Assembly: GCA_038245785.1 (NCBI GenBank)
Contig: JBBRSB010000004.1
Span: forward strand, 64,001 to 128,000
DNA: 64,000 nt
Reading direction: 5' to 3'
Origin: Gloeobacterales cyanobacterium
GTDB taxonomy: Bacteria > Cyanobacteriota > Cyanobacteriia > Gloeobacterales > PMM-0068
This document shows positions 7,502 to 29,329 of this stretch, piece after piece; positions within the stretch are counted from its first letter, which is position 1; the number at the start of each line of letters is the position of its first letter. Position numbers and translations under genes: made by a program. The notes under the pieces are model-generated. The model saw only the letters and a list, made by a program, of their open reading frames with translations. It did not search any database and was not told where the DNA came from.

Positions 7502-7569
7502 GTCAAAAACAGTAAGAGCAGTCACCATAAAATAAGTGCTATGTCTTTTCCTCCTTTCTTCATACCTTC

Positions 7570-8491: not shown

Positions 8492-8544
8492 TGCTGCCAG
8501 TTATCTCAGAATCGGCTATGCTGGGATCACTAAATTATTAAGTT

Positions 8545-9423
8545 TTGCAAATGGATTGTGCCATCAATCGTCGGGCGAAGTTTAGCGCCTCCCATCGCTA
8601 CTGGTTGCCCACCCTGACCGAAGCTGAAAATCAAGCGCGATTTGGGCTGCACTGTCGGCCCCACGGTCATGGCCACAACTATGTCCTATTCGTCACGATG
8701 CCTGGTGTGGTGGACGAAGCAGGCATGGTTCTGAACCTCTCTGAGGTGAAGCATGTGATTCGCGAATATGTTACGGACCCTCTGAATCTGTCTTTTCTCA
8801 ACGAAGCTTGGCCTGAATTCGGCCAGACGCTGCCAACTACAGAATTTATTGCCTATACGATCTGGCAAAAACTTGCCCCCCATCTGCCTTTACAATCTAT
8901 CGTCCTCCATGAAGACGAAGAACTCTGGGCTGAATACCGAGGAGAATCTATGCACGCATATCTAACCGTAGGTAGCCACTTTGCAGCGGCCCACCGCCTT
9001 GCCCGTGAAGACTGGAGCTATGAGCATAACTGCGAAATCTATGGTCTATGTGCTCGTCCCAATGGTCACGGCCACAACTATGGCGTGGAAGTGACAGTTC
9101 GAGGAGAAATAGACTCCGAAACAGGCATGATTGTGGACTTGGTCAAACTTCAGCAAGTCATTGATCAGCAGGTTCTCAAACCTTTTGACCATACATTTCT
9201 GAACAAAGATGTAGCCTATTTTGCCAGGACAGTCCCCACTGCAGAAAACATCGCGCTGCATATTGCTGAACTTTTGCAGGCTCCTGTAGCAGCCTTGGGA
9301 TGCCAACTCTATCGCATCAAACTGACAGAAAGCCCCAACAATTCCTGTGAAGTAGTGCTACCGATCGAGGCCCCGCAGGAGAGCCCGGCACGGAGCAAAA
9401 CTGAGGCGGTGTTGGTCGGTTAG
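8545..9423 (+). CDS. 6-pyruvoyl/6-carboxy-tetrahydropterin synthase, tandem double domain
   Basis: Two PTPS repeats: C..PHGHGHNY...PTTE and CARPNGHGHNY...PTAEN. Confidence 0.9.
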   Translation: MQMDCAINRRAKFSASHRYWLPTLTEAENQARFGLHCRPHGHGHNYVLFVTMPGVVDEAGMVLNLSEVKHVIREYVTDPLNLSFLNEAWPEFGQTLPTTEFIAYTIWQKLAPHLPLQSIVLHEDEELWAEYRGESMHAYLTVGSHFAAAHRLAREDWSYEHNCEIYGLCARPNGHGHNYGVEVTVRGEIDSETGMIVDLVKLQQVIDQQVLKPFDHTFLNKDVAYFARTVPTAENIALHIAELLQAPVAALGCQLYRIKLTESPNNSCEVVLPIEAPQESPARSKTEAVLVG

Positions 9424-9943
9424 ACCAAGGCGTTCCATCGCTTCCAGGTGGCTTTTCGTGCCATAGCCTTTGTGAGAAGCCAAATTATAGCCTGGATAAC
9501 GAACCTCCCATTCCGTCATCATCTGATCTCGGTGAACTTTAGCAAGCACGCTGGCAGCGGCAATCAAGGGCTCTTTCAAGTCACCTTGAATAATCATTCT
9601 TTGAGGAAGGGAAAAGTTTGGAATTGGACGATTTCCATCTATGAGTGCTCGTTGGGGAACGGGCCCAAGCTTTTGCACAGCTCGTATCATGGCCAGAAAA
9701 GTGGCCTGTAGAATATTAACGGTATCAATTTCCTGAACGCTGGCTTCTCCAACAGCCCAGACTATAGCCATGGCTTGGATTTGGGCTGCTAAAACCTGTC
9801 GTGTGGATGCAGAAAGACGTTTAGAATCTGTTAGCCCTTGGGCGACAAGATAGCGTAGCGACTCGGTTGGAATAACCACAGCCGCTGCTACCACGGGTCC
9901 AAAGAGACAGCCTCTTCCTACTTCATCTATTCCGCAGGGGATT
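9358..9943 (-). CDS. rnhB: ribonuclease HII (start codon unresolved; overlaps the 3' end of rne)
   Basis: DSKRLS, IDGN, IAAASVLAKV.RD, HKGYGT; in-frame upstream extension IPCGIDEVGRGCLFGP carries the catalytic motif. Confidence 0.9.
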
Positions 9944-12233
9944 GCTCCGGGGGGGAGTCTTGTCCACTCGGCTCTTGATTCTGTAGGTCCAAGGTGAGTT
10001 CCTTGATCGCTTCAGCGCCCTCATCGGCAGATTCAGATTTACGCCGCTTGCGGGGAGGGGCTGGTATCCGTTTCTTTCGGGCAGGGGCTGATTTTGCTTT
10101 GGGTGTTTCTTGCTCCAGCATGCCCTCTAGAGGCAGTACTTCAGAGGAGGCGGAATCCAAATCCATAGGAAGTTCTTCCGATACTTCCTTTTTCTCCTTC
10201 CTTTCTCTTAGCTTGGGCATGACCTCACTCGCACCTGTAGAACGACGACGACGGCGGGCACGATCATCTACAGTAACTTCTGCATCAGGTTCCTGTGTGA
10301 ACACTTCCTGTACTGCTGTTACTTCAGGGACAGTTGCTTCGGCAACCGCCTCCACCTCTATAGAAGGCGCAGAGGCAACGGCCACAGACACAGGAGCACT
10401 CTTGGTCTCTTCAAACCTCTGCCCAGCGCGACGACGACGACGACGACGTTCCTGTTCAATCTCTTCTTCTGGCTCTGGAACGCGCACAGAGAGAATAGAG
10501 CTCTTGCTCAATCGGTCTTCCAAGCCCACATCCGGTATGGACTTTACCTCCAAGCCGCCATTTTCCTGAGGTATGGAAGACACGGCAGTGGCTACATTTT
10601 CCAATCCATCCGGAGTAGCAAACTCTTCTCCCTGCATGGACAAAGTACTAGGAACAGCGTTTTCCTGCCGAAAAGCCTTGGTCGTGCGGGAGATTCGCCC
10701 TTCCTCCACCTCAGGTCCTCGTTCAGCCCCTCGCTGAGCGCGGGTAGAGATACCACCTGTACGAGGTTCGGGCCGACTACCACGGCGACGGTCATTCCAG
10801 CTAGGACGGTCTCCTGCAGCAGGAGTATTTCCCCGACGGCGGTCCTGACGAAACGTAGGATGCTCTGAAAGCTCCACATCTGCGGTGCTCGTAGCTTCTA
10901 CAAAGTCCGAATCCCCGGTTGCCATCGGGAATTCTTGATAAGCAAAGGCTGCGGTCTCTTCTTCTTGCGGTGTTTCTGTCGTTCCAGCCCGACCGGCACT
11001 AGCGGGCAAGGCAGGAATGATACCCTGCGCATCACAGACAGTACAGTTTTTGCCAAATACTTCATAGATGCTCTGCCCTTGACGTTTACGGGTCAGCTCC
11101 ACCAATCCTAATTCTGAAAGCTGAGCAATCTGTGGGCGGGACTTATCAGACTTAAGGGCTTTGGAAAAATGCTCCAGGACCTGCATTTTGTCCCGCATCG
11201 AATCCATGTCGATGAAATCCACCACAATCACGCCGGCAATATTACGTAACCTAAGCTGGCGAGCAATTTCAGTGGCGGCCTCGCAGTTGGTCCAGAGCAC
11301 TGTTTCACGGGAGGTGGCAGAGCGGGTAAAGCTACCAGAGTTGACATCAATTACAGTAAGCGCTTCGGTGGGCTCGATCACTACATAGCCACCAGAGGGC
11401 AGGTCTACTCTTGGTTTCAAGGCTTCTCGAATAGCGGCGGTGACCCGGTAGAAGTCCAACATGGAGGAGGCTTCTTTGTGGTGCTCGACATAGACGCCAT
11501 TAGGCATTCTGCCGGCATTCCATTGGAGCAAAGCCTGTTTCACTCGCTTTTGGCCAAAGGAACTATCGGTCACAATCCGATTGACTTCAGCCGTGTAGGT
11601 ATCGCGCAGGACCCTCTGAATAAAATCTTCATCCCGGTTCATCAAAGCCGGAGGGCGAGTAGATTGGGTTTTCTGTTGAATCTTTTCCCACTGCTTTTTA
11701 AGATATTCTAAATCCCGGATGATCGCCTGTTCATCCATGCCTTCGGCTTCGGTTCTGACCAGAAGCCCCATTCCTTCAGGCTTTACTAAGACCGCTAAAG
11801 CGCGGAGACGATGGCGTTCATCTTCATCTCGAATTCGCCTAGATAGATTTACACCCCGACCACTGGGCATCAAAACCAGAAATCGCCCTGGCAAGGTGAT
11901 ATTCCCGGTTAATCTAGGTCCCTTGTTGCCAGTAGGTTCCTTCATAACCTGGACCAGCACTTTTTGCTGGGGAGTTACCAACTCAGTAATTGGTGCGATG
12001 CTCCGTTTGAGTCGAATCGGTCCTAAATCAGAAACATGAATAAAGCCATTGCGTTCTGGATTGCCTATATTCACAAAAGCAGCATCGATCGAAGGAAGAA
12101 CGTTTTCCACGACTCCCAGATAAATATCTCCTACCTGATGGGAGCCCTGGGCAACGACCAGCTCTTGAATTTGGTCTTCAGAGAAGACCGCCGCAAGACG
12201 GTGCTGCTCGGCAATGATAATTTGCTTCGGCAT
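9927..12233 (-). CDS. rne: ribonuclease E/G
   Basis: S1 domain, IDVNSG, RQLRLRNIAGVIVVDFIDM; disordered C-tail with poly-Arg motifs. Confidence 0.97.
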   Translation of the reverse strand: MPKQIIIAEQHRLAAVFSEDQIQELVVAQGSHQVGDIYLGVVENVLPSIDAAFVNIGNPERNGFIHVSDLGPIRLKRSIAPITELVTPQQKVLVQVMKEPTGNKGPRLTGNITLPGRFLVLMPSGRGVNLSRRIRDEDERHRLRALAVLVKPEGMGLLVRTEAEGMDEQAIIRDLEYLKKQWEKIQQKTQSTRPPALMNRDEDFIQRVLRDTYTAEVNRIVTDSSFGQKRVKQALLQWNAGRMPNGVYVEHHKEASSMLDFYRVTAAIREALKPRVDLPSGGYVVIEPTEALTVIDVNSGSFTRSATSRETVLWTNCEAATEIARQLRLRNIAGVIVVDFIDMDSMRDKMQVLEHFSKALKSDKSRPQIAQLSELGLVELTRKRQGQSIYEVFGKNCTVCDAQGIIPALPASAGRAGTTETPQEEETAAFAYQEFPMATGDSDFVEATSTADVELSEHPTFRQDRRRGNTPAAGDRPSWNDRRRGSRPEPRTGGISTRAQRGAERGPEVEEGRISRTTKAFRQENAVPSTLSMQGEEFATPDGLENVATAVSSIPQENGGLEVKSIPDVGLEDRLSKSSILSVRVPEPEEEIEQERRRRRRRAGQRFEETKSAPVSVAVASAPSIEVEAVAEATVPEVTAVQEVFTQEPDAEVTVDDRARRRRRSTGASEVMPKLRERKEKKEVSEELPMDLDSASSEVLPLEGMLEQETPKAKSAPARKKRIPAPPRKRRKSESADEGAEAIKELTLDLQNQEPSGQDSPPEQSPAE

Positions 12234-13092
12234 GAAGCCTCCTGTTAAAAAGCCGCCATTCTTAGGGCGGGTTTACTAATACTGGTACTGGAGAGTGTCC
12301 TGCATTCTGTTTGTCAGGATGCACTCGACAAGAAAGTTCTCAGAGCAAGCTCAGCTACAAAAAAGACGATCATGACTATGAGGTGAGCCCTTCTCTTCCG
12401 TATCCTTACGCATCCAAACATGCAGCAAGCGCACGCATCAATGCTTCGCATTCAGAGGAACGACCCTACGCCTTTTAAGAGGCCTTACTCTGGCAGTTGA
12501 CATTCCGTTAGGTCTAAGGCCACAGAATGGCGGCACTTATAACCGCTGGATTCTTGGGCTATCCACTGCTTACCAACACAAACCTTGATAAAGCTGAAGT
12601 GAACATGTCTAGGCTATGCTACCTACTCCTCAAGCATGCCCCAGTTTTTTATATTAATTAAAACCGGAGTTTCCCCGGTGCCTACCAGGTACTCGCCCCA
12701 AGTATATCATTAGATCTACGGAATCTACGCTCCCCTTGATTCCCACCGCCATTCGGGAACACTAGCACCTTAGAACCTTAAGAAAATGGATGGTTTGCTC
12801 TACTTTTCTAAGGCATCCGAAATACTAAAGGCATAGACCTCAACTGCTCTTAAAGCCTATGTTTAACGCTGTTTTAGTGATCCTTACGCTCCTTTTCATC
12901 CCTACCCTACTTTTCTTTTGTACAAAAGGTGGATTTTACGATACTGAGCACTACACAGGCAATGGTTCAGCCCATGGCAAAGAGTCAGAAGACTAGAGGG
13001 TCGGGACCGGAAGTAAGTAGATATTTATCAAAAGAAGTTCAGAGTATTCTGAATGCTCTCGTATCATTAGATAGACTCCCTTTATAGCCAAA

Positions 13093-14376
13093 ATGGCCCT
13101 AGACTCGTCCCCTCTTACTCCAGCAAAACCGCCTCGCCTTACATGGCTGGCTCCGACCCTCGCCTTGGCAGGTATAGCAGTCTTAGCCTCCGGAGCTTTT
13201 TGGATAAACCACGTCCGGGAGCAAGCCGTTTTGGTAGAAAGTGCTTACCAAGCAGCCCACCATAAGACTTCAGAGTATTTTAGTCTGGTGGAGTCAAGAG
13301 AGCAGGCCATTCAGCAAGCCAACCCTGATCGGGTAGAACACCTAGACAAAGTGTTGGCGAAGGAGCGTCAAGAGCTTATTCAGAGTCTTGAAAGCTACAT
13401 TGCCGCTATTTCCCATCTGCCGCAGAAGGAACTGACGCAGCATCTCAATGATTTAGAAGCAGGCAAGATCGAGGCTTCAGTCCGCTCCTTTGAGGGCGTA
13501 GGCCGTTTGGTCGAGCTACAGGTTTCTGAAACAGAAGACCAATCCCGTGAGCCCGAGCTAAACCAACGTCGTGTCAGTTTTTGGCTTTCGGGAGGAGACC
13601 GGACCCGTGTGGCCAGCTTGAACGACTTTTCTGAGGACCCAGATGCTCAGGTAGAGCAGTTGGGCCTAATCCAACCAGCACCCAATAGTGTGAGCCCGTT
13701 CCCAGTGCTCGTGGTTACAGGAAAACGCAAAGCCTTAGACTGGTCTACCCCCTGGATAGAAATTTTTCAGGTGCAGCCAGACCATATTGAAAAAGTGACG
13801 GCGAAAGTCTTTCCCGTGACCCTCTTAGAGTCTTCTCTGGGGGAAAGTCCGACCCTCAAACCGGATAACAGTTTTGTCATAGAACGCCATTTGCTCGACC
13901 CAGAGCGGGTCATGGCTCCCTGCGATAGCTGCGGACTCCTGGGCTATCACAGCCAATTCCAGTGGGAAAACGGGCATTATCAAATGACCGAAAATACGCT
14001 TTTGAATACGCCAGACAATGTGGCCTACGCTGGTTTGGTTTATCTCAAAAAACGGAACCAATCACCTGCCTGGACTAAACCCTTTTTGTCCAATAGTTTC
14101 CGTCAGCAAGCAGACCGCTTCGCCCCCTTCAATCCTAATGACTACGAGGTCTGGGAGCAGGGCTTTGTCGTAAGTGACCAGGTGCAAAGCAAAAATTCTG
14201 TAATTTTTTCTCTAGACGGTGTAGCTACGGGTAAGCTCACAGTCGTCCACACGCCTCAAGGTCCATGGAAAGCGCAATCGGTCCAGGGAAGTTTTTGGAC
14301 TCCTGCGCAACCTAGACAATTAAACTCTGAATCAGAGCAAAATGGGACAGATTCTGCCTTGCCAGAAGCCGCTTAA
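13093..14376 (+). CDS. hypothetical exported/membrane-anchored protein
   Basis: 427-aa ORF with N-terminal TM and a CDSC motif; no family recognised. Confidence 0.7.
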   Translation: MALDSSPLTPAKPPRLTWLAPTLALAGIAVLASGAFWINHVREQAVLVESAYQAAHHKTSEYFSLVESREQAIQQANPDRVEHLDKVLAKERQELIQSLESYIAAISHLPQKELTQHLNDLEAGKIEASVRSFEGVGRLVELQVSETEDQSREPELNQRRVSFWLSGGDRTRVASLNDFSEDPDAQVEQLGLIQPAPNSVSPFPVLVVTGKRKALDWSTPWIEIFQVQPDHIEKVTAKVFPVTLLESSLGESPTLKPDNSFVIERHLLDPERVMAPCDSCGLLGYHSQFQWENGHYQMTENTLLNTPDNVAYAGLVYLKKRNQSPAWTKPFLSNSFRQQADRFAPFNPNDYEVWEQGFVVSDQVQSKNSVIFSLDGVATGKLTVVHTPQGPWKAQSVQGSFWTPAQPRQLNSESEQNGTDSALPEAA

Positions 14377-15071
14377 ATGCCAATTCCGGAAAATTGAATC
14401 CCGGTACGCCCTTCTCTCCGGTAAGAATAAAAGAGCTGTTCCTCTTGATAGGTACAGTAGGGTGCTAGCGCAATGTGTATTTCTAGAACACCGACAGCAA
14501 GGGCTTGTTGACGATTTACTTCTCGCACATCTAGCCTCACTTTGCCTTCTTCAGCGTCTGGCATAAACGCTTTGGCTGGATAGGCAATAGTCTTGATTAC
14601 TTCGTCCGCTACGGCTTGATGAACAGGATAATAATCTCCTGAAATAGCAGGTCCCAAAGCAACGCGGATTCGCTCCGGTTTTGCTCCCCGCAAAATCATG
14701 TGCTGAATGGCGCGCGGGAGTATCTTAGCAGCAGTTCCTCGCCAGCCAGCATGAACAGCGGCAACCATAGAATGCTCAGGGTCTAGCAAGAGTGCTGGCA
14801 CACAGTCTGCGCTTTTGGCCCAAGTCGTAACGCCGGGCGTACTGCTGACTAAACCATCTCCTTCTAAGTCTGCCGTTGCTTTCTCTGCATCAAATATCAG
14901 GGCGCTATGGATCTGTTTGAGATGATAAGCCTGCTCTGGAGGATGACCTAGCGCAGAAGCCAAGGGACCAGGAGCACGGTGAGGATTGCGGGTAAAAAAT
15001 CCGTGGGGGAAGGGCTGTAGGAGTTCACATTCAAGCCAACTGACTACGCCAGAAGTTTTCAACTGCCACAT
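14373..15071 (-). CDS. pgeF: PgeF/YfiH laccase-like purine nucleoside phosphorylase
   Basis: HGFFTR, KQIHS, ADCVP, AVHAGWRG, FYSYRR. Confidence 0.92.
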   Translation of the reverse strand: MWQLKTSGVVSWLECELLQPFPHGFFTRNPHRAPGPLASALGHPPEQAYHLKQIHSALIFDAEKATADLEGDGLVSSTPGVTTWAKSADCVPALLLDPEHSMVAAVHAGWRGTAAKILPRAIQHMILRGAKPERIRVALGPAISGDYYPVHQAVADEVIKTIAYPAKAFMPDAEEGKVRLDVREVNRQQALAVGVLEIHIALAPYCTYQEEQLFYSYRREGRTGIQFSGIGI

Positions 15072-16231
15072 AAACCACCTCCCAAGCGCAAAAGACGACC
15101 CGTTTGTTCCGCACTCCACTCTAGATGACGTGTAGCTCGGCTCAAAATCTCTGTGGCATCGAATAGGCAGGGCACACTATCGACTACGGCCATTGCCCCT
15201 TTCTGGGATAAATCAGAGGATAGCAAATCTGTAGCCGCTTCTAGATCTACGGCACCGCCTAGGAGAATGACAGGCGTTTGGACTTTTTGACAGCACTCCA
15301 ATACACCCATAATCGTCTTGCCATAGAGGGTTTGCCTGTCTATCATGCCCTCTCCTGTAATCACTAAATCCGCACGGGCCGCTTGTTGTTGAAAGTCTAA
15401 AATCTCCAGAACTACCTCTATGCCTGGGCGAAAAGAGGCCCCTAGGGCATAAAGGGCAAACCCTAAGCCTCCAGCTGCTCCTGCTCCCGGAAGGTCATGA
15501 TAAATCTCTCCCACGGAACATTCTAAGATTGCGGCATAATCTGTCATCCGCTGCTCCAACGTTTCTACCATTTCTGGAGAAGCTCCTTTTTGTGGACCGT
15601 AAACGCGAGCAGCTCCCTCAGGACCCAGTAGTGGATTGCGAACATCACAGGCAACCGTAATCTCCAGATGCTTTAAACGCGCTCGAAGGGCAGGCAGGGC
15701 GGCAATCAGATCTACTTGAGCCAGCCCTGGGCCTCCCCAGGCAACGGGGTCACCCTGTGGATCTAAAATCTTTACCCCCAAAGCCTGCAAGAGGCCAATA
15801 CCTCCATCCACAGTCGCAGAACCGCCCAACCCAATCAGTAGCCGTTGGACGGTCGGCTCTTGCAAAGCAGCCATCAACAGTTGCCCACTCCCAAAACTGG
15901 TGGTATTCCAAGGATTTCGCTCCGTCTGGGAGAGATGCTGAAGCCCTGAAGCTTCGGCTATATCCATCACTACCGTAGAACCGACCACGCCATAGCGCCC
16001 CTCAAAGCGTCGCCCTAAAGGATCCAACACCGTCACTGTCCGCCAGGTACCGTTTAGGGCGTTGACTAAAACTTCTGCGGTGCCCTCCCCTCCATCGGCC
16101 ACTGGCAAAGCGGTTATTTCCAGTTCAGGCCATCCTCTATGCAGTCCTCTGGTTATAGCTTCTACTGCAGCATGGGCACTGAGGCTACCTTTAAAAGAAT
16201 CTGGCGCAACAAGGACTTTTAGGGTTTTCAT
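15059..16231 (-). CDS. glycerate kinase (GlxK family)
   Basis: APDSFKGSL, PVADGGEGT, GLGGSATVDGG, GAGAAGGLG, ITGEG. Confidence 0.93.
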   Translation of the reverse strand: MKTLKVLVAPDSFKGSLSAHAAVEAITRGLHRGWPELEITALPVADGGEGTAEVLVNALNGTWRTVTVLDPLGRRFEGRYGVVGSTVVMDIAEASGLQHLSQTERNPWNTTSFGSGQLLMAALQEPTVQRLLIGLGGSATVDGGIGLLQALGVKILDPQGDPVAWGGPGLAQVDLIAALPALRARLKHLEITVACDVRNPLLGPEGAARVYGPQKGASPEMVETLEQRMTDYAAILECSVGEIYHDLPGAGAAGGLGFALYALGASFRPGIEVVLEILDFQQQAARADLVITGEGMIDRQTLYGKTIMGVLECCQKVQTPVILLGGAVDLEAATDLLSSDLSQKGAMAVVDSVPCLFDATEILSRATRHLEWSAEQTGRLLRLGGGLCGS

Positions 16232-16238
16232 GATTTCA

Positions 16239-17030
16239 CTACTTCATCGCAAACCGAATTACCAAAATCATAATTCCCAGACTTAGAGCCAATCCACCCC
16301 ACAGGTTGGGTAGGAGAAAGGTGGCAGTGATGCGATTTTTCTGTCCAAGAATGACATCCCATACTAAAACCCCATTTTCATTACGAGTAGCGTTAGACTG
16401 CCAGGGAGAGAATGGTAAACTAAGCGCAAATTCTAAGTTCACGAGTTGTGCCGGATTAATCATTAGTAAGTTACCCGAAGGCAAAGGAAGACTGGTTTGA
16501 GTTAGGTCAACGTCATAGGTCAAGGTGTAAGCATCCACCAGGAGCCAGGTTTGGGTTTGGACCTCAAATTTAGCGGTGGGCGCAGGCAAAGTATTCTGAA
16601 CGGGAAGGTATTGGATAGGTTGATAGGACTGGTTGGACTGATTAGATCGAAAAGCCAGGACTAAAGGTTCATTAAAAAAGCGATTGAACTTAGTTTCTAA
16701 CTCTTTGGGGTCCTTAAATGGGATCTGGAGCGCTAATTTCCCTTCTTGTATAGTGTCTACCTTCCCCCCCAAACCTTCTGTTCGTTTCTTTATAGAACGA
16801 ATAAATTGCTCATAGGGAAATCCAGACAAACGAACTAAGGCTGGTTCGATATCCAAATTCTGCGTAATCATGCCGCTTGCGTTCCAATTGAATTGCAGAC
16901 CCAATCGGTACTGGACGCAACCGCTCAAGGTAAGCAGCAAGATAAGCGGAACACAAAAGCGCACTAGGCGCTGTATCACATGGGAGGCGGGAGGCAGTAA
17001 ATTGGCCAAAGAGTTTTTCACAAACGGCAA
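16239..17030 (-). CDS. DUF3153-like lipoprotein/membrane protein
   Basis: Lipobox LSGC, C-terminal TM, LPF...SNA..LVW motif. Confidence 0.65.
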   Translation of the reverse strand: MPFVKNSLANLLPPASHVIQRLVRFCVPLILLLTLSGCVQYRLGLQFNWNASGMITQNLDIEPALVRLSGFPYEQFIRSIKKRTEGLGGKVDTIQEGKLALQIPFKDPKELETKFNRFFNEPLVLAFRSNQSNQSYQPIQYLPVQNTLPAPTAKFEVQTQTWLLVDAYTLTYDVDLTQTSLPLPSGNLLMINPAQLVNLEFALSLPFSPWQSNATRNENGVLVWDVILGQKNRITATFLLPNLWGGLALSLGIMILVIRFAMK

Positions 17031-17272
17031 TGGACTCCATCAGAGTTCACAACATCTTAGTCATCTAGCAGGGCTGCAACCATGACGTCTAATAGAACCT
17101 TTTAGCTCCCCTCGTCCTACTCTTCAGTTTATTAATATCAAAAGCTGTATGTGACTCTACTTCAATCTACGCTACCCATCAGGTAATCGTATGCTACGAG
17201 CGAGCTTTATAGAACCATGCTGCTATCGTTAGCCGTCTGTACCTGACAGCTGATGGAGGAGGGTTTAAAATC

Positions 17273-17349
17273 TGGTCGGGACGGCGGGATTTGAACCCAC
17301 GACCCCCACTACCCCAAAGTGGTGCGCTACCAAGCTGCGCTACGTCCCG
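17273..17349 (-). tRNA. trnP: tRNA-Pro(GGG)
   Basis: CGGGACGTAGCGCAGCTTGGTAGCGCACCACTTTGGGGTAGTGGGGGTCGTGGGTTCAAATCCCGCCGTCCCGACCA; cloverleaf, encoded CCA. Confidence 0.97.
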
Positions 17350-17523
17350 TGATCAATATATGCTTCCTAATCTAGCAAGCAGAGCTTAGAGATAGTACCA
17401 TAGCACGACCTCCTCCGTCCCAGGTCTGGTTTATTTTTTTGCATCTCTGCTTTCCTCTATAATTGTTCAGTGGAAAGCGCACAGGTGTACGCGCCTATCA
17501 AACAAGATTTAAAAGGAGTTGAG

Positions 17524-18570
17524 TTGGAAAGGGCTTATCGCATCGCGATTTTAGGTGCTACTGGAGTAGTAGGCACGGAACTCATCCAAATTCTGGAAGA
17601 GCGCAATTTTCCCGTGGATTCTCTTGTCCTTCTGGCTTCTGCCCGTTCTGCTGGGAAACAACTGCCCTACAAAGACACTTTCTTGCCTGTTCAAACTTTG
17701 AGCGAAAAATCTTTCGAAGGGATTGATTTGGTATTTGCTTCAGCGGGAGGCAGCCTATCCAAACAGTGGGCACCCGAGATTGTTCAGGCTAGAGCTACCC
17801 TGATTGACAATTCCTCCGCTTTTCGGATGACTCCTGGTGTGCCTTTGGTCGTGCCAGAGGTGAATCCAGAAGATTTAAGGCAGCATAAAGGCATTATTGC
17901 GAACCCTAACTGCTCCACGATTCTAATGGCCCTAGCTCTTTGGCCCCTCCATCAGGTAAAGCCGATTAAACGGGTGATCTGTAGTACCTATCAGGCGGCC
18001 AGTGGTGCTGGAGCTGCTGCCATGGAAGAGCTCAGTAATCAGACCAGGGATGTCCTCGCAGGAAAAGAGCCCAATCCTCAGGTCTTTCCACATCCGATTG
18101 CCTTCAATTTATTTCCGCACAATTCTCCAATGACCCAGAACCGCTACTGTGAGGAGGAGTTGAAGATGATTTATGAAACCCAAAAGATCTTCCACGAACC
18201 TAGCCTCCGAGTAAGCGCCACCTGTGTACGGGTCCCTGTACTACGAGCCCATGCTGAGTCGATCAATGTTGAATTTTATGAGCCCTTTGGCGTAGAAGAA
18301 GCCTCTGAACTCCTTAAACAAGCTCCAGGAGTGACTTTCACGGAAAACTGGCAGAGCAATACTTTTGCCATGCCTTTAGATGCCAGTGGAAAAGATCCTG
18401 TAATGGTAGGAAGGGTCCGCCAAGACCTCTCCTGCCCAGAAGCGCTGGAATTATGGCTCTGTGGAGACCAAATTCGCAAAGGTGCCGCCCTCAATGCGGT
18501 GCAAATTGGAGAGTGGCTCGTTCAACATGATTGCGTACGCCATAAATCAGATTTGGTTTTCCGTGCCTAA
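17524..18570 (+). CDS. asd: aspartate-semialdehyde dehydrogenase
   Basis: AILGATGVVG, DNSSAFRM, ANPNCST, SATCVRVPV, RKGAALNAVQI; TTG start after AAGGAG. Confidence 0.96.
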   Translation: MERAYRIAILGATGVVGTELIQILEERNFPVDSLVLLASARSAGKQLPYKDTFLPVQTLSEKSFEGIDLVFASAGGSLSKQWAPEIVQARATLIDNSSAFRMTPGVPLVVPEVNPEDLRQHKGIIANPNCSTILMALALWPLHQVKPIKRVICSTYQAASGAGAAAMEELSNQTRDVLAGKEPNPQVFPHPIAFNLFPHNSPMTQNRYCEEELKMIYETQKIFHEPSLRVSATCVRVPVLRAHAESINVEFYEPFGVEEASELLKQAPGVTFTENWQSNTFAMPLDASGKDPVMVGRVRQDLSCPEALELWLCGDQIRKGAALNAVQIGEWLVQHDCVRHKSDLVFRA

Positions 18571-21502: not shown

Positions 21503-21535
21503 TCTTAGGCCTGACTTAGATACTTTACGGCCATA

Positions 21536-21571
21536 AAAACTCCTCTGAGTTCTGAAACTTGGAGGAGTTTT
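21536..21571. terminator. probable bidirectional terminator after rnj
   Basis: AAAACTCCTCTGAGTT...AACTTGGAGGAGTTTT inverted repeat. Confidence 0.7.
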
Positions 21572-21728
21572 TAGATCTATCGAGACTAAACCACTTTTCA
21601 TCATCTATCCCAGAAGAAAGTTCGAGGAAGGAAATGGTTAGTGGTTAGTTTCCCTCGCACATGCCCCTTTAGCGAGAAAGTTGATACAATTTCGGAGAAC
21701 TAACCCGAACGTTCTGGGAGAGTTGCTT

Positions 21729-22361
21729 ATGCCTATGCCTGCCGAAAACCAGACCACAAATGAGCCTCAAGAAAATATGACAGAATCTTCTCAAACCCCC
21801 CAATTAAATAGTGGAGACCTCGCGGGTGGAGGTAACATCGACAAAATCAGAGAGATTCTCTTTGGTTCTCAGATGCGCGATTATGAAAAAAGGTTCTCTC
21901 GACTAGAAGACCGTTTGCTCAAAGAATGTGCAAACCTGAAGGATGAAACTCGAAAGCGACTCGATACGCTGGAACATTTCATGCAACAGGAAGTAGAATC
22001 TCTAACCGAGCGGATGCGCGTAGGACAAGAAGCAGGTATTGAAGCAGCGAGGGAGATAACCAGAGAGGCTAATCAAGAGCTCGCCCAAGAATTAAGAAAT
22101 ACGGTGAAATCTCTAGACCGACGAGTTAGTCATCTTGATGACCAAAGCACCAAGAACCAACGAGAAATCCGTCAGCAATTGTTAGAACAATCCAAAAATC
22201 TCGGTGATGATATTCAACAGAAATATTTAGAGATTTTATCTATGCTTGAGCAAGAGGCCCTGGAGTTGCGTACTGATAAAACAGACCGTGCGACGCTGGC
22301 TGCGCTTTTTACAGAGATGGCCATGCGGCTTAATCACGAATTCACTTTGCCTAGTGAATAG
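21729..22361 (+). CDS. coiled-coil protein, first gene of the GTPase operon
   Basis: IDKIREILFGSQMRDYEKRF...KTDRATLAALFTEMAMRL; heptad-rich. Confidence 0.8.
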   Translation: MPMPAENQTTNEPQENMTESSQTPQLNSGDLAGGGNIDKIREILFGSQMRDYEKRFSRLEDRLLKECANLKDETRKRLDTLEHFMQQEVESLTERMRVGQEAGIEAAREITREANQELAQELRNTVKSLDRRVSHLDDQSTKNQREIRQQLLEQSKNLGDDIQQKYLEILSMLEQEALELRTDKTDRATLAALFTEMAMRLNHEFTLPSE

Positions 22362-22390
22362 AGAAAATAGGGAAATAGCGAGGGATAGTA

Positions 22391-23764
22391 ATGGCTGATT
22401 TCACCCGTGAAGTCCCCGAGAATAACCTCAATCACAATGCAGACAGTGATGAACTATCAGCACTGCGTGACTTGCTTTTCTCCCCTGAGCAAAACCAATT
22501 GGGTGAACTCCGGCAGCGTCTTGATGACCCTAAACGTTATGCGGAGGATGTCAGTCGAGTCCTACCGGAATCCATTCTCTTGAGAGCAAGTCAGGATAAG
22601 CAGCTAACCAATGCTTTGATGCCTACAGTTGAAGAAGCGCTCCAGATTTCTGTTCAAAGAAACCCTAGAATTTTAACGGATGCCATTTTTCCGATCATTG
22701 GTCCGGCTATTCGCAGGGCAATTACCAGTGCAATTCAGAATTTGATCCAGTCTTTGAACGAAACCCTGGATTCCAGCTTCTCGCCCAGGGGCCTGCAATG
22801 GCGGTTGGAAGCGCTACGAACAGGCAAGTCTTTTGCAGAAATTGTTCTTCTCAGGACCCTGCGCTACCGAGTTGAGCAGGTTTTTCTCATTCATCGGAAA
22901 ACGGGTTTGCTCCTCCAAACTGTAGTAGCAGAAGCCATTACCAGCCAAGATGCCGATATGGTCTCAAGTATGCTCACCGCCATCCAGGATTTTGTCAGAG
23001 ATTCTTTTGGCATCCAGCAAGACGATACACTGGGGACCATGCAGGTTGGCGAACTTACGGTATGGATTGAGCAAGGTCCTGAAGCTTTAATGGCCGGTGT
23101 CATTCGCGGAACTGCACCAGAAGAACTAAGACTCGTTTTTCAAGAGGCCCTAGAAACTATTCACGTTGAAAGGAAAGAAGATTTAGCTTCATTCCAAGGG
23201 GATAGTGCTCCCTTTGATGCCTGCAGACCGATTCTGGAAATATGCCTTCAGCAAGTGCAGCAGCGAACGGAAGTGAAAAAGTCATCTCCGGCCCTATGGA
23301 TTCTGGCTAGTGTGCTAGTGGTTGGAGCGAGCATTTTGTTCTTTTTTGTCTTTCAGAAAAACCAAGAAAACCAAAAATGGGTGAGCTACCTTGAAAAACT
23401 AAGAATGCAACCAGGTTTGGTAGTGCTCGCTACCACTGAATATCATGGAAAATATAACCTTATCGGATTACGGGATCCTCTTGCTATCGATCCTGCAAGC
23501 CTTTTGCAAGATAGCGCCCTAAACCCAGCCTCTGTGTATAGCCGCTGGGAGCTCTATCAATCCTCAGAGCCAGCCTTTGTTCTCACGAGGGCAAAGGAAC
23601 TGCTGCAACCCCCGCCCACGGTCAGCCTGAGCCTTAAAGATGGTACCCTCTATGCCAAGGGCTCTGCCCCCCAGTCATGGGTCAAAGATGCGCGCAAACT
23701 GGTAAGACTCCTACCAGGAGTCGTGCACTTTCAGGAAGACTTAAAGGGTGCACCACCCACATAG
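22391..23764 (+). CDS. single-pass membrane protein with cytoplasmic longin/roadblock-like segment and BON-like extracytoplasmic end
   Basis: VEQVFLIHRKTGLLL...DMVSSMLTAIQDFVRDSF...LTVWIEQG; TM ALWILASVLVVGASILFFFVF; PPPTVSLSLKDGTLYAKGSAP. Confidence 0.7.
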   Translation: MADFTREVPENNLNHNADSDELSALRDLLFSPEQNQLGELRQRLDDPKRYAEDVSRVLPESILLRASQDKQLTNALMPTVEEALQISVQRNPRILTDAIFPIIGPAIRRAITSAIQNLIQSLNETLDSSFSPRGLQWRLEALRTGKSFAEIVLLRTLRYRVEQVFLIHRKTGLLLQTVVAEAITSQDADMVSSMLTAIQDFVRDSFGIQQDDTLGTMQVGELTVWIEQGPEALMAGVIRGTAPEELRLVFQEALETIHVERKEDLASFQGDSAPFDACRPILEICLQQVQQRTEVKKSSPALWILASVLVVGASILFFFVFQKNQENQKWVSYLEKLRMQPGLVVLATTEYHGKYNLIGLRDPLAIDPASLLQDSALNPASVYSRWELYQSSEPAFVLTRAKELLQPPPTVSLSLKDGTLYAKGSAPQSWVKDARKLVRLLPGVVHFQEDLKGAPPT

Positions 23765-23839
23765 GGTTTGTCTAAGGGAACAGTATAATCATTTAACCGT
23801 ATCTACCTATATAGTCTTACACGCTGGATGCCCTAGCTC

Positions 23840-24331
23840 ATGATTCAGAAAAAAATATGTATGGTAGGAGCTTCCGCCGTCGGAAAAACCAGTTTAGTAA
23901 GCCGTTTTGTTAAAAGCATCTATTCGGATATTTACCATGCCTCCATAGGCGTCAAGATTGATAAAAAAACGTTAACGGTGGGGGAGCAGGAGCTTAGTCT
24001 AATGCTCTGGGATATCGCTGGAGAAGACGAATTTCAGAAGATTACAATCTCCTATCTGAAAGGATCTTCAGGATATATCCTTGTGGTCGATGGGACGCGT
24101 AAGGAAACTCTCTATCGGGCCATAGATCTGCAAGCAAGAGTAGAGGAGGCTATAGGTCCGTCTCCCTTCGTTGTATTGATCAACAAGTCTGACCTGGAAA
24201 AGCAGTGGCAAGTTACGCCCGAGATGATCAAGCAACTCGCTGAAAAGGGCTGGACCGTCTTGCTGGGGAGCGCAAAAACTGGACTGGGCGTTGAAGATGC
24301 CTTTCTCACCCTTGGTAAGGCGATGCTTTGA
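23840..24331 (+). CDS. Rab/Ras-like small GTPase
   Basis: G1 GASAVGKTS, G3 WDIAG, G4 NKSD, G5 SAK; 163 aa stand-alone. Confidence 0.93.
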   Translation: MIQKKICMVGASAVGKTSLVSRFVKSIYSDIYHASIGVKIDKKTLTVGEQELSLMLWDIAGEDEFQKITISYLKGSSGYILVVDGTRKETLYRAIDLQARVEEAIGPSPFVVLINKSDLEKQWQVTPEMIKQLAEKGWTVLLGSAKTGLGVEDAFLTLGKAML

Positions 24332-24345: not shown

Positions 24346-25023
24346 TCACAGCCTACGACAAGCCCGTACGACTCTACCCAGAATGACGGACTTCTCAGCC
24401 AACTCAGACACACTCATCGTCCAAGGCTCATAGGAAGCGTTATCACTACTCACCCTAATCGTATCGGCTGCAATACGCTGTAGACGTTTGATCAACAATA
24501 CGTTCTCGATTTGCAAAACATAGATCCCGTCATGCACGGCCGTAGCGTGGAGATTAGCTAAAACAATATCTCCTGGGTAGAGAGTCGGCTTCATGCTTTC
24601 TCCCTCCACGTAGAACAGTTTTAGATCTTGAGGCTTAGCATGCAGCTGAGAGAGCCAACTCTTTTTGATCGCTAGAGGCTCCTCAACCGCAGTTTCCTTA
24701 TCATCAGGAGCCAGGTAAAGAGAAATGAGCGCATAATCATCTAGACTAGCCAGGTACTCCGTGGCATTAGGAGTAGACCGCTCCTCTGGAGTACCCATGA
24801 GAAGCCAGGCCGGATTGACCCCGTAGCGTTCACAAATGCGCATCAGCAGAGCAGAATCAGGCAATCGCTCTTCTTTCTCATACCTGATTAACGTGTTTTT
24901 GTGTACTCCCAGCGATTGGGCGAACTCAGCCTGGGTAAAGCGGCCTCGGACCTGTGCAATACGAAAACCAATCCCACGAGGCTTGGACGGATTGGAAGAA
25001 TTAGAGGAAGAAAGGCTGGTCAT
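24346..25023 (-). CDS. phage CI-like repressor (XRE HTH + S24 peptidase)
   Basis: TQAEFAQSLGVHKNTLIRYE HTH; VEGESMKPTL and IKRL S24 Ser/Lys motifs. Confidence 0.92.
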   Translation of the reverse strand: MTSLSSSNSSNPSKPRGIGFRIAQVRGRFTQAEFAQSLGVHKNTLIRYEKEERLPDSALLMRICERYGVNPAWLLMGTPEERSTPNATEYLASLDDYALISLYLAPDDKETAVEEPLAIKKSWLSQLHAKPQDLKLFYVEGESMKPTLYPGDIVLANLHATAVHDGIYVLQIENVLLIKRLQRIAADTIRVSSDNASYEPWTMSVSELAEKSVILGRVVRACRRL

Positions 25024-25137
25024 GATGTTACAAAGTTTTCTGCTGAGGTTTCTACGGAAGAATAAGAATCCAATCGAGTATTAAATAGACCCCAAATGGA
25101 GGTAACATGGCATCTGCAAGGATTATAGAATCTATCC

Positions 25138-25440
25138 ATGACGAATAAAGAAAATAATAAAGAAGAAGCTTGTGAAGATTGGCACCCTGCTGACGTAAAA
25201 GCTGCCCTAGAGAAACGGGGATGGTCTCTCTCCAAGCTATCCAAGGCACACGGTTATAAACGGGGCAGTGCCGCAAAAGCTCTGTACCACCCCTGGCCGA
25301 GAATGGAGCGCATCATCGCCAAAGTCTTAGATTTAGAACCATGGCAGGTTTGGCCATCACGCTATAACGAATCTGGCTCTTCCAATCGTGGTCCTGGGGG
25401 ACGTCCTCCGTATATTCATTCTGCCACGATTGATGGTTGA
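25138..25440 (+). CDS. Ner/Nlp (SfsB)-family DNA-binding protein
   Basis: DWHPADVKAALEKRGWSLSKLS...PWPRMERIIA..L..EP..VWPSRY. Confidence 0.92.
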   Translation: MTNKENNKEEACEDWHPADVKAALEKRGWSLSKLSKAHGYKRGSAAKALYHPWPRMERIIAKVLDLEPWQVWPSRYNESGSSNRGPGGRPPYIHSATIDG

Positions 25441-25675: not shown

Positions 25676-28600
25676 ATGCCTATCACGCCCCTCCCAAAGA
25701 ATGAGCAGGAACGGCTAGCAGCACTCCATCGCTACAATATCCTGGACACAGCGCCAGAAGAAGCTTTTGATCGCATTACAGCGCTTGCCGCTCGCTTATT
25801 TTCCGTCTCTATCGTGGCGGTCAGCTTGTCGGATCGTGAACGCCAATGGTTTAAGTCTTGTCAGGGTCTTGAGGTCGATCAAATAGACCGTCCCATAGCT
25901 TTCTGTTCATACGCTCTCTTATCTCCCAAGACTCTGATTGTTCCTGATGCCCATCTTGACTGTCGCTTTGCAGACAATCCCTTAGTGATAGGAGGACCAA
26001 AAGTACGGTTCTATGCCGGAGCAACCCTACGCACTAAAGATGGATATCAGCTTGGGACTTTCTGTATTGCTGATCAAAAACCACGCAGCCTATCATCACA
26101 GGAACAAGCGAACCTAGAAGACCTTGCAGCTATTGTAATGAATCAGATAGAGCAAAGATTATTCATTGAGAAAGTAGCCCAGACAGAACGAGCATTAAAG
26201 CGATCTGATACCAATTTAAAGGCTATCTTTGATAACAGTTCACAATCATTTGTATTGATTGATAGAGAACATAAGATTCAAGCATTTAATAAAATAGCTA
26301 ATAAAAGAGCAAAACTTATTTTCAATAGGAGACTCAGGGAAGGAGATTCTATCTACAACTTTGTGATTGACTCTGATCTAGATGATTTCAATAGAGACTT
26401 TAATAGTGCTCTGTGTGGGAACCCAGTAAAAATTGAACGAGAAATCCCTTCTAGTACGGGAGAAGGCCACTGGTTTGAGTTTGACTATAGCCCTGTTTTC
26501 GAAGAAGGAAAAGCGATCGGAGTTTGCTTGAGCGTCCTCAGTATCAATGAAAGGAAAAAAGCGATTTGGGCACTTGCTGAGAGCGAAGAACGATTCCGTT
26601 CTCTAGTCCAGAACTCCTCAGACATCATCACGATTCTCAAAGAAGATGGAACCATAAATTATGGCAGTCCGTCTATTCAAAGAATTTTGGGGTACCAGCC
26701 GGAAGACTTGGTAGGAAAGAATCTATTTTCCTATGTACATCCAGAAGATGCTCCAGCCGTACAATCTATCTTTTCCACGGCGAGTCAACAAATGGGTATC
26801 CCGATAACAATGGAATTTCGGTTTATTCGCATTGATGGATCTTGGCGATATTTAGAAGCGATTGCAAATAGCTACATTGCAGACTCCTCCTTCCAAGGAG
26901 TGATTGTCAACTACCGAGATGTAACGGAGCGCAAAAAAGTAGAAGAAGCACTCCTCGAAAGTGAAGAGCGCTATCGTTTCTTAGCAGAGAACGTGACCGA
27001 TATTATTTGGACACGAGACATGGAGCTGAAGTATACGTACATCAGTTCTTCTGTTCAGCGGGCCCGTGGCTATACTGTCGTAGAAAGTATGTCTCAAGGG
27101 ATTACAGAGATACTAACGCCTTCTTCTCGCGAGTTAGCTATCAAAAGCTTACAGGAAGAACTGGAACTGGAAAGAATGGGAGCTCCACTTTGGAGATCGC
27201 GAACCCTAGATCTGGAATATATCTGTAAAGATGGCTCAAAGATCTGGGGTGAGACTTCCATGGTTTTCCTGCGTGATGATAAGGGGGAAACAATCGGAAT
27301 TTTAGGTGTGGTTCGTGACATTACTGAGCGTAGAAGAGCTGAAGAAGCTTTGCGGAAAATTGAAGCTAGAGATAGAGCATTTTTGAATGCCATTCCAGAT
27401 TTAATGTTAGGCATTAGTAAAGAGGGGAAGTACATAGATTTTTTGGGTTCAAATACAAAGGGAGGCCAAGAAAGTTCTTACGCTCGTATATTTCTTGGAG
27501 AGAGTGTCTATGAAGCTTTGCCTTCAGAAGTTGCGCAGCGCATGATGAATGCGGTGGACCAAGCCTTAAACTCTGGGGAAACCCAAATCTTTGAATATCG
27601 GCTTTCTGCGGAAAGTGAGATACATGATTATGAAGCCCGTATCGTGGTTAGTGGAGAAAATGAAGTCCTCTCGATTATCCGAGATATTACAGAACGAAAA
27701 CAACTGGAGCGAGAACTCATTGCCGCAAGAGAAGAAGCCCTAGAGGGAGCACGAATTAAAGCGCAATTTCTTGCCAATATGAGTCATGAAATTCGCACTC
27801 CAATGAATGCCGTTATTGGCATGTCAAGCTTATTGTTAGATACTGAACTAAGCGCAGAGCAACGAGACTATGCTGAAACAGTGCGCTATTCCGGTGAGGC
27901 TTTGCTCACCGTAATTAATGATATTCTCGATTTTTCCAAGATAGAAGCTGGCAAGCTTGAAATCGAAGTCATTGATTTTGATCTTAGTCGAGCCGTTGAA
28001 GATATAACAGCATTACTGGCAGAACAAGCTAGTCGTAAAGGATTAGAACTAGGTTGTTTAGTCTATGGCAATGTGCCTAAAATGCTTAGGGGAGATCCTG
28101 GTAGGCTCTGCCAAATTCTTATTAATATCCTCAACAATGCGATCAAGTTCACGAAACAGGGAAACGTTACGCTTTCCGTTAAACTAATCGAAGAAACAGA
28201 GCATCAGGTACTCTTACGCTTTGAGGTTAAAGATACAGGGATTGGAATTAGCCCTAAAGAGCAGAGTCGCTTGTTTAAACCATTTTCTCAGGCAGACAGT
28301 TCAACCACGCGCAGGTATGGTGGGACAGGGCTGGGGCTGGCTATTTCTAAACAACTTGTGGACCTCATGGAAGGAGAAATTGGGGTTGAAAGTGCTCTTG
28401 CTCAAGGAACTACCTTTTGGTTTGCATTACCTTTAGAAAAACAACCTGAAACGCCCCAATCAGTCATTCCTTCTCCTGATATAGTCCTTAAGGGATTGCG
28501 CGTACTTATTGTTGATGACAACGCAACGAACCGTAAAGTTTTGGCTCATCAGCTGACTTATTGGGAGGTGCTTTATGACGAAGTAGAAGGCGGTCTCCAG

Positions 28601-29329
28601 GCTTTAGAACGGCTTCGAACCTCTGGCCTCACCTACGACTTAGTCATTTTGGATTTGATGATGCCCGACATGGATGGTATCCAATTGACGCACCTGATCA
28701 AAGCAGACTTAGCGCTGTCTGATATTCCCCTGATCTTGCTCGCCTCTTTCCGAGAACGGGGAGACGTAGAAACTGTCAAGCAAGCCGGGATCGCTACTTA
28801 TCTGACCAAACCTGTGCGTCAATCCCAATTATTTAGTGCAATAGTGCAAGCACTGGGGCACACTAGCCCGCTCATATCCTATATGCCCGCGCCCATATCT
28901 CCTCCTCTTGTGGAAGGGGTTAAAAAAGCTAACAAAGCCATATCCCAGAGCCTGATCTTGGTGGCTGAAGACAACGTTATCAACCAACGAGTAGCGGTAC
29001 GCCAGTTAGACCGATTAGGATATCGGGCTGATGTAGTGGCCAATGGGCTGGAAGTCCTAGAAGCTCTAGCCCACACACCCTATGCTCTAGTGCTAATGGA
29101 TTGCCACATGCCAGAGATGGACGGGTTTGAGGCAACCGCAGCTATTCGTGAAAAAGAAGGTGCTCACCACACTATCATTGTGGCCATGACAGCCAGTGCC
29201 ATGCGGGGAGAGCGAGAAAACTGCCTGCAAGCAGGAATGGATGACTATATTGCCAAGCCTGTAAAGTTAGAAGAGCTTATCTCTGTGCTTGAACGCTGGA
29301 TCCCGCCAGGCCTCCCTGAGATGTTGTGA
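25676..29329 (+). CDS. hybrid sensor histidine kinase (GAF, multiple PAS, HisKA-HATPase, two receivers)
   Basis: [21 protein letters not shown] repeats; [21 protein letters not shown]; two REC domains. Confidence 0.95.

What the first reader, a model, noticed from the sequence alone, without database searches (positions are those of the whole stretch)
21729..24331. Coiled-coil + membrane-anchored longin-like protein + Rab-like GTPase operon
Seen: three co-oriented genes after the rnj terminator. The third is a stand-alone 163-aa GTPase with G1/G3/G4/G5 motifs, Ser at the usual G2 Thr position (ASIGV), Glu after DIAG and no C-terminal prenylation motif. The second has a cytoplasmic segment (VFLIH..GLLL...D.DMVSSMLTAIQDFV.DSF....L..MQVG.L.VWIE.G) with the beta-beta-alpha-beta-beta pattern of longin/roadblock folds, then one TM and a BON-like outer domain. 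Established: longin and roadblock domains act as GEF/GAP modules for Rab, Rag and MglA GTPases. Inference: a bacterial trans-envelope small-GTPase signalling module (scaffold, membrane regulator, switch), possibly feeding the hybrid kinase at 25676. Its function is unknown to me.
Basis: partly seen in the sequence, partly recalled or inferred. Interest (0 to 1): 0.78.

Follow-up and report, generated by a model that had tools for sequence, protein, structure and literature searches.

The report
Stripped-down bacterial Rab-like GTPase switch
These three genes are a real, conserved bacterial signalling cassette around a Rab-like GTPase, catalogued from genomes in 2014 but never tested; its membrane protein is predicted to carry the longin fold that activates Rab GTPases in eukaryotes, and this early-branching cyanobacterial copy has lost its cell-wall anchor and, apparently, its usual output gene.

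Summary
The genes are the Group 1 Rup cassette (DUFY > DUFX > Rup) described computationally by Wuichet & Søgaard-Andersen (PMC4316618), so the function is unknown but the system is not. Among the 80 closest GTDB loci, DUFY lies upstream in 74 of 75 scorable loci and Rup downstream in 71 of 73.

Residues 157-290 model confidently as a longin (β-β-α-β-β-β-α-α; Z about 13 to VAMP7, Sec22b and Fuzzy) rather than a roadblock, and helix α1, the GTPase platform in Mon1-Ccz1 and TRAPP, is the conserved helix. I found no paper stating this. The scan itself reported the system, including the fold, on other DNA (8 findings listed).

What is particular here is reduction. The OmpA tail (76 of 77 loci) is absent. 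The PAS-plus-invariant-Gln output domain (68 of 69 loci) was not found in this genome. A -10-like box precedes rup in all three genomes of the genus, and one of them keeps rup without DUFX/DUFY. The kinase at 25676 lacks the canonical domain; a link to it rests only on synteny within the genus. Binding and GEF activity are untested.

The parts
21534..21573 (+). 18-bp terminator-like hairpin closing the asd-dapA-rnj block
   Evidence: -23 kcal/mol, z -5.14; not listed by the consensus scan
21729..22361 (+). DUFY: cytoplasmic all-helical protein (210 aa) with 11/3-type amphipathic periodicity; likely scaffold
   Evidence: only weak apolipoprotein/phasin-like hits; 74 of 75 loci; dN/dS 0.09-0.11
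22391..23764 (+). DUFX (457 aa): helical stalk, longin domain, TM, two BON-like lobes; no OmpA tail
22445..22858 (+). N-terminal helical stalk of DUFX (residues 19-156), with a conserved WR..A..TG..F.E hairpin
22859..23260 (+). Predicted longin domain (residues 157-290, β-β-α-β-β-β-α-α)
   Evidence: pLDDT about 90-98; VAMP7 Z 13.4, rmsd 2.4, 117 aligned; Sec22b Z 13.2, rmsd 2.6, 121; Trs23 Z 12.7, rmsd 2.7, 125
22952..23008 (+). Longin helix α1 (residues 188-206, DMVSSMLTAIQDFVRDSF), inferred dimer/GTPase platform
   Evidence: 10 of 19 columns at least 90% conserved, versus 0 of 17 in α2 and 2 of 12 in α3
23294..23350 (+). Single transmembrane helix (residues 302-320)
   Evidence: hydropathy
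23366..23749 (+). Outer region, two BON-like lobes (residues 326-453); the protein stops where relatives begin OmpA
   Evidence: BonA E 2.4e-6, DolP 7e-6, OsmY 2e-4; high rmsd, ranges not printed; no Pfam hit
23779..23789 (+). AACAGTATAAT, a -10-like box upstream of rup, conserved in G000, G001 and G002; possible internal promoter
23840..24331 (+). Rup small GTPase (163 aa), Rab-like, G3 DIAGE without Gln, private Ser35
   Evidence: dN/dS 0.10-0.14
24346..25023 (-). cI-like repressor (HTH + S24) lying where the output gene normally sits; truncated in G002, deleted in G001
25138..25440 (+). Ner-like HTH_35 regulator, divergent from cI, 86-92% identical across the genus
25676..29329 (+). GAF-PAS4-HisKA-HATPase-REC-REC hybrid kinase; candidate replacement output, not a canonical Rup output

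Best explanation
This is a reduced Group 1 Rup cassette in which an inner-membrane protein likely presents a predicted longin domain to the Rab-like Rup GTPase and probably activates it by promoting GDP/GTP exchange, with the helical DUFY protein as a likely scaffold. Step by step: (1) Shown: gene order, conservation, purifying selection, one TM, loss of OmpA. (2) Predicted by folding: residues 157-290 form a longin. (3) Inferred from Mon1-Ccz1, TRAPP and MglB: two DUFX molecules pair through β3/α1 and the paired α1 helices bind Rup. GEF is favoured over GAP because longin dimers mostly act as GEFs, and because in full systems the missing G3 Gln is proposed to come from the output protein. (4) Inferred: the outer BON-like lobes couple envelope state to the stalk; without OmpA this is probably by lipid contact or oligomerisation rather than a peptidoglycan tether. 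(5) Shown as far as searches reach: the canonical PAS-Gln output was not found in this genome, so Rup-GTP must act on a different partner here. The neighbouring hybrid kinase is the best candidate, at about 1 in 4.
For: The published description matches gene for gene. Synteny: DUFY 74 of 75, Rup 71 of 73 scorable loci among 80. The AF2 model has mean pLDDT 88.7 from 128 sequences. The top structural matches are longins covering 157/160-289, while roadblocks align only about 158-267 and start after their own first helix. α1 is the conserved helix, and 4 of 6 invariant columns in an 83-row alignment that includes distant cyanobacterial paralogs lie in it (M194, A197, I198, F201). α1 is the dimer and GTPase surface in known longin GEFs (PMC3747258; PMC5216073). 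All three genes are under purifying selection against G002, the longin part most (dN/dS 0.06-0.09). The genome has one Rup, one DUFX and one DUFY, so the pairing is unambiguous.
Against: No binding or activity data. Longins also serve without GTPases (SNAREs), and the best Z scores include SNARE longins. No sequence-level similarity to solved longins was found. β1 is as conserved as α1 (7 of 12 columns), and α1 conservation could reflect dimerisation or stalk packing alone. G001 keeps an intact, selected rup (dN/dS 0.10-0.14) with DUFX and DUFY not found (94% complete, 350 contigs), so Rup may work without the longin in this genus. pTM is only 0.54, so the arrangement of domains is unreliable.
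Confidence: 0.55

Rival explanations
1. The longin is an MglB-like GAP or a passive docking platform: it binds Rup-GTP and localises or switches it off rather than loading it.
For: MglB is among the top structural hits (Foldseek E 1.4e-4; Z 10.9, rmsd 2.5, 107 aligned). Rup lacks the G3 Gln and this genome lacks the proposed Gln donor, so another GAP would be needed. Longin/roadblock domains are platforms and not catalysts, and SRα's longin is neither GEF nor GAP.
Against: The topology is longin, not roadblock. No invariant Gln lies in α1. PMC10933270 describes these platforms as mainly GEFs.
Confidence: 0.22
2. In this genus the cassette is coming apart: Rup now has its own promoter and works with ner and the hybrid kinase, while DUFY-DUFX persist in a separate envelope role or are being lost.
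For: A -10-like box is conserved upstream of rup in 3 of 3 genus genomes. G001 retains rup-ner-kinase with DUFX/DUFY not found, beside an inversion breakpoint. OmpA and the output domain are absent. Ser replaces the G2 Thr in this copy.
Against: DUFY and DUFX remain adjacent to rup and under purifying selection in G000 and G002. Eleven OmpA-less orthologs are intact and share the same end point. The G001 assembly is fragmented. Unrelated genes (ferredoxin, DinG-like) are equally syntenic, so the rup-kinase linkage may be inertia.
Confidence: 0.15
3. The longin has nothing to do with the GTPase: it is a membrane-protein interaction domain like those of SNAREs or adaptor subunits, and the genes are only co-regulated.
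For: The highest Z scores include VAMP7, Sec22b, Ykt6 and AP subunits.
Against: Adjacency to rup holds in 71 of 73 loci across several phyla, and GTPase-binding longins score equally (Fuzzy 13.2, Trs23 12.7).
Confidence: 0.08

Closest known systems
Group 1 Rup system (DUFY > DUFX(:OmpA) > Rup > output), Wuichet & Søgaard-Andersen, Genome Biol Evol 7:57, PMC4316618 (seen: abstract, outline, section 18 in full, passages of sections 13-19, and Table S2 rows returned by one search of supplementary file 3; figures not seen)
   Same: Stand-alone Rab-like GTPase lacking the G3 Gln; coiled-coil gene and DUF-TM gene in the same order; present in cyanobacteria; untested experimentally according to that paper. 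OmpA-less DUFX is already listed there for Bacteroidetes.
   Different: No OmpA tail. The fourth gene, with its N-terminal invariant-Gln domain, was not found in the genome; a cI/ner pair sits in its place. [quoted passage not shown]
Longin-dimer Rab GEFs Mon1-Ccz1, Fuzzy-Inturned and TRAPP Bet5-Trs23 (PMC5216073 and PMC3747258; passages seen)
   Same: Same predicted fold (Z 11-13), a conserved α1 with small residues at i/i+4, and a Rab-like partner.
   Different: One gene, so a homodimer would be required; fused to a helical stalk, a TM and BON-like lobes; the GTPase has no prenyl tail; no detectable sequence similarity; activity untested.
MglA/MglB and the actinobacterial conservon
   Same: Bacterial small GTPase encoded beside a roadblock/longin-superfamily protein, often linked to a kinase.
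   Different: The GTPase is of the Rup/Rab type (DxxG), not MglA. The partner has longin order and is membrane-anchored, whereas MglB is a soluble roadblock.

Membership tests
Group 1 Rup system | Single-domain Ras-superfamily GTPase with eukaryote-like G1-G5 and no G3 Gln | tested here: met
   (DIAGE; Glu in 59 of 83 relatives, Gln in 5)
Group 1 Rup system | Gene order DUFY (coiled coil) > DUFX > rup | tested here: met
Group 1 Rup system | DUFX followed by an inner-membrane helix | tested here: met
Group 1 Rup system | C-terminal OmpA domain on DUFX ('often' in the paper, so optional) | tested here: not met
   absent here, present in 76 of 77 scorable loci; one unlinked OmpA-like protein lies on contig C1
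Group 1 Rup system | Fourth gene: signalling output with an N-terminal invariant-Gln domain | tested here: not met
   Profiles of three subclasses found nothing in G000 (best E 1.9, 2.7, 0.067) and neither did A3. The genome is 98% complete, in 255 contigs, with 5888 bases withheld. Filed therefore as a reduced variant, not a complete system. That my invariant Gln is the paper's is inferred; its logo figure was not visible.
Group 1 Rup system | Falls in the paper's Group 1 clade | not tested
   The paper's listed sequences were not fetched. My tree places the copy beside Nostoc/Anabaena-type cassettes (SH-aLRT 89, unstarred), which is indirect.
Longin domain | β-β-α-β-β-β-α-α order with the third helix C-terminal | tested here: met
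   Predicted model; longin hits span 157/160-289; definition from PMC3747258
Longin domain GEFs | Dimer through β3/α1 that binds the GTPase on the α1 face | not tested
Longin domain GEFs | Stimulates nucleotide exchange | not testable with these tools
   Needs biochemistry
Roadblock/MglB | α-β-β-α-β-β-β-α order with an N-terminal helix filling the slot | tested here: not met
   Roadblock hits start at chain residues 16-28, after their first helix, and end at model residues 255-267. Judged from aligned ranges on a predicted model.
Eukaryotic Rab | C-terminal hypervariable tail with prenylated Cys | tested here: not met
   The sequence ends ...LGKAML at residue 163
Eukaryotic Rab | RabF1-5 motifs | not tested
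   No formal scoring; partial matches are visible in the Rab14 alignment
BON domain | BON fold in the outer region | tested here: inconclusive
   Foldseek BonA/DolP/OsmY E 2e-6 to 2e-4 but rmsd 12-15 A and ranges not printed; no Pfam BON hit; the region was not folded alone

The most novel reading that the evidence does not exclude
Bacteria run a true longin-dimer GEF on their closest relatives of Rab GTPases, encoded together in one operon. That would make it a one-gene ancestor-like counterpart of Mon1-Ccz1/TRAPP, against the printed view that prokaryotes (later: bacteria) lack longins. In this Gloeobacterales genus the switch has shed both its wall anchor and its canonical Gln-donating output and been rewired, through its own promoter, to a GAF-PAS hybrid kinase.
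Probability: 0.2. Interest if true: 0.72.

Novelty: new variant of a known kind. Interest (0 to 1): 0.4.

Why it matters
Group 1 Rup proteins are the bacterial GTPases closest to Rab/Ras/Rho/Ran (PMC4316618), and I found no experimental work on them. A longin next door gives the untested system a concrete first experiment: exchange assays with two small soluble proteins. It also bears on where the longin-Rab partnership arose. PMC3747258 (2013) states there are no longin domains in prokaryotes, and PMC10933270 notes that Asgard GTPases and longins are generally not in operons, which makes pairing hard there; here the pairing is one-to-one. This copy is a natural deletion series (no OmpA, no output; a sister genome apparently without DUFX/DUFY) showing which parts are dispensable. 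The general point is not special to this window, and the scan has made it before.

Tried and rejected
Complex prediction (two longins plus Rup) was not available, so there is no verdict on binding.

No RNA run was listed for the locus; this is no evidence on expression.

Scans that found nothing or missed the clade: the P0002 scan of genome contigs and the A4 scan of metagenome contigs found no relatives. A clade-directed DNA pattern gave 10 loci, none from the OmpA-less clade. What follows rup in the other nine OmpA-less orthologs (P0004-P0013 apart from G002's) is therefore unseen. Two of them share a longest-contig length with kinase orthologs (P0012/P0273 53777; P0011/P0274 61072), which hints at the same layout.

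Kinase as the original fourth gene with a swapped N-terminus: its core is 62% identical to a Rup-linked Blastocatellia kinase, but unrelated hybrid kinases reach 57-60%, so this is not diagnostic. Gln 13 residues after the PAS-closing Asp is also weak on its own: 7 of 38 such motifs in the genome have it.

DUFY as a paralog of DUFX's N-terminus: the DUFY profile hit 2 of 128 DUFX proteins against 1 reversed control; not supported.

OmpA loss as an assembly error: rejected, since 11 proteins from several sources end at the same point.

Recent acquisition: GC and GC3 are like the genome's and the tree is compatible with vertical descent; test_one_clade was not run.

The ESM Atlas gave only unnamed clusters. 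The A5 profile against PDB sequences gave one hit at E 0.054, taken as chance. PHROGs had nothing for DUFY or Rup.

Literature searches finding no statement of a bacterial longin or Rup follow-up. They cover the open-access library only; subscription papers and bioRxiv supplements could hold it.

Full report
Observation. The three ORFs, their motifs and the upstream hairpin are as described. The flanking genes (asd, dapA, rnj) and the closest titled locus (L014, a Gloeobacterales cyanobacterium, 75% identical in the membrane protein) place the window in that early-branching cyanobacterial order. L014 gives the same gene coordinates as G002's contig (L008) and is counted once.

Identity. PMC4316618 (section 18 read in full; passages; Table S2 rows from one supplement search) describes Group 1 Rup GTPases. 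They lack the G3 glutamine and are encoded with a coiled-coil protein (DUFY), a DUF 'often followed by' a TM and OmpA (DUFX), and a fourth gene, a cyclase/phosphodiesterase or kinase whose N-terminal region has an invariant Gln proposed to act in trans. This matches the window gene for gene up to rup. The family is large: 5788 hits among 7998 scored candidates and 4721 cluster representatives. It is patchy: a Rup match at E 1e-25 or better in 15 of 201 phylum genomes; DUFX in 3 of 14 and Rup in 4 of 14 genomes of the order.

Synteny. Loci too close to a contig end were dropped per test. DUFY was upstream in 74 of 75, rup downstream in 71 of 73, an OmpA tail on DUFX in 76 of 77, and an output domain within 700 bp after rup in 65 of 69 and somewhere in the locus in 68 of 69. 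The single miss for both OmpA and output is L014, the window's own genus. The output profiles were seeded from 56 of these loci, so that tally is partly circular; the genome searches below are not.

Fold of DUFX. AlphaFold2 with 128 sequences gave mean pLDDT 88.7 and pTM 0.54: helices 19-156, β-β-α-β-β-β-α-α at 157-290, a TM helix, and two small α/β lobes. Foldseek returned BonA, DolP, MglB, TRAPP, Mon1-Ccz1, AP sigma and Ragulator. VIA-align over 48,161 representatives ranked Fuzzy (Z 13.2, rmsd 2.8, 125 aligned), VAMP7 (13.0, 2.3, 118), Sec22 (12.4, 2.9, 122), a Lokiarchaeal longin (11.5, 3.1, 131) and Mon1-Ccz1 (11.2, 3.3, 131) at or above MglB (10.9, 2.5, 107) (one search agrees). Longins align through residue 289. 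Roadblocks stop near 267 and begin after their own first helix. By the definition in PMC3747258 (passages) this is longin order. There is no sequence-level match to solved longins. Helix α1 is conserved (10 of 19 columns at 90% or more, against 0 of 17 and 2 of 12 for α2 and α3; β1 has 7 of 12). In Mon1-Ccz1 and TRAPP the paired α1 helices bind the Rab, and bulky α1 mutations abolish exchange (PMC5216073, passages). The small residues at i/i+4 in DUFX α1 resemble that pattern, but I did not test the register. The BON assignment is weaker (high rmsd, no Pfam hit).

The canonical output and its absence. The domain after rup in relatives has an invariant Gln and folds as a PAS domain plus helix (pLDDT 92; PAS hits). 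It is fused to cyclase or kinase modules. A distant cyanobacterial subclass matches it weakly (E 9e-4). Profiles of all three subclasses found nothing credible in six frames of G000 (best E 1.9, 2.7 and 0.067), and A3 found nothing in G000, G002 or G005. In that call G017, which carries the distant subclass, was also missed and G039 matched only at E 0.02, so a still more divergent version could escape. The kinase at 25676 begins with a standard GAF; its four PAS linkers have Glu, Glu, Lys and Ala at the Gln position; A3 against it gives E 0.17. The space after rup is taken by a convergent cI-like gene 14 bp away and a divergent ner-like gene.

The genus. Eleven DUFX proteins at 73-100% identity end at the same point without OmpA, so the loss is real and lineage-wide. 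Against G002, dN/dS is 0.09-0.11 for DUFY, 0.10-0.17 for DUFX (0.06-0.09 for the longin) and 0.12-0.13 for Rup; dS is near saturation, so these values are rough. G002 has the same order with cI cut to 98 aa. G001 has rup-ner-kinase intact with cI deleted, the block inverted against rnj, and DUFX/DUFY not found (94% complete). AACAGTATAAT lies about 50-70 bp before rup in all three, suggesting an internal promoter; this is unproven. G005, from another family of the order, also has an OmpA-less DUFX (422 aa) followed by rup, a PAS ORF and a GAF-kinase ORF without the canonical domain, on a long separate branch. The window's copy is sister to the other cyanobacterial cassettes in a quick tree (SH-aLRT 89, unstarred, with one Bacillota-labelled bin in the same fork), compatible with vertical descent.

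Mechanism. Most likely a membrane-anchored longin dimer loads or positions Rup, DUFY scaffolds the stalk, and Rup-GTP signals to a partner. In full systems that partner is the PAS-Gln protein. Here it is unidentified, with the hybrid kinase the best but weak candidate. Gene content, selection and losses are shown; the fold is predicted; binding, GEF direction and output are inferred.

Novelty. The system is in print since 2014. I found no paper assigning a longin fold to DUFX or following up Rup experimentally (open-access library only; other papers in those calls seen as listings only; PMC10933270, PMC4917890 and PMC4915359 seen as passages). PMC4917890's table lists 'Longin/Roadblock' jointly as present in bacteria. 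The scan's earlier notes report the same system and fold on other genomes; I had identified the family before reading them. What this window adds is a doubly reduced variant in an early-branching cyanobacterial genus. Verdict: new variant of a known kind, interest 0.40.

Noticed in passing
window 24346-25440: Divergent cI-like/ner-like pair reminiscent of a Mu-type phage switch (the Mu resemblance is recalled), with no other phage genes noticed among the ORFs listed for 15000-42000. ner stays 86-92% identical across the genus (dN/dS 0.04-0.14) while cI is truncated in G002 and deleted in G001: possibly a domesticated regulator of the kinase.
   Followed up: partly
L115 (G001:C76) 5156-13728: The rup-to-dockerin block is inverted relative to rnj and now abuts purL; rup is intact while DUFX and DUFY were not found in this assembly: a possible stand-alone Rup.
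   Followed up: partly
window 23942-23944 (Rup residue 35): Thr-to-Ser at G2, seen in only 4 of 83 aligned relatives and not in G001 or G002; the same change in Ras is recalled as an effector-selective variant.
   Followed up: partly
L009 (G005) 7185-10857: DUFX ends early at a TAG (422 aa), and a PAS ORF overlaps a GAF-kinase ORF after rup; may be one frameshifted kinase or a decaying cassette.
   Followed up: partly
L010-L013: A distant cyanobacterial subclass with 740-930 aa DUFX (long N-terminal extension, about 25% identity) and its own version of the PAS-Gln output domain.
   Followed up: partly
L116 (G127:C13) 9579-18555: Two Rup cassettes in tandem: one with an OmpA-less 465-aa DUFX and a class A output, the other complete with a class B kinase.
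   Followed up: no
L095 and L099: Cassettes in which rup and its output are transcribed divergently from DUFY-DUFX.
   Followed up: no
P0125, P0127, P0129, P0177: DUFX relatives of 1200-1500 aa with 5-8 matched stretches, possibly many repeated outer lobes.
   Followed up: no
window 38804-40477: A DNA methyltransferase-like ORF convergent with an unknown ORF, perhaps a restriction-modification pair (judged from the N-terminal sequence only).
   Followed up: no
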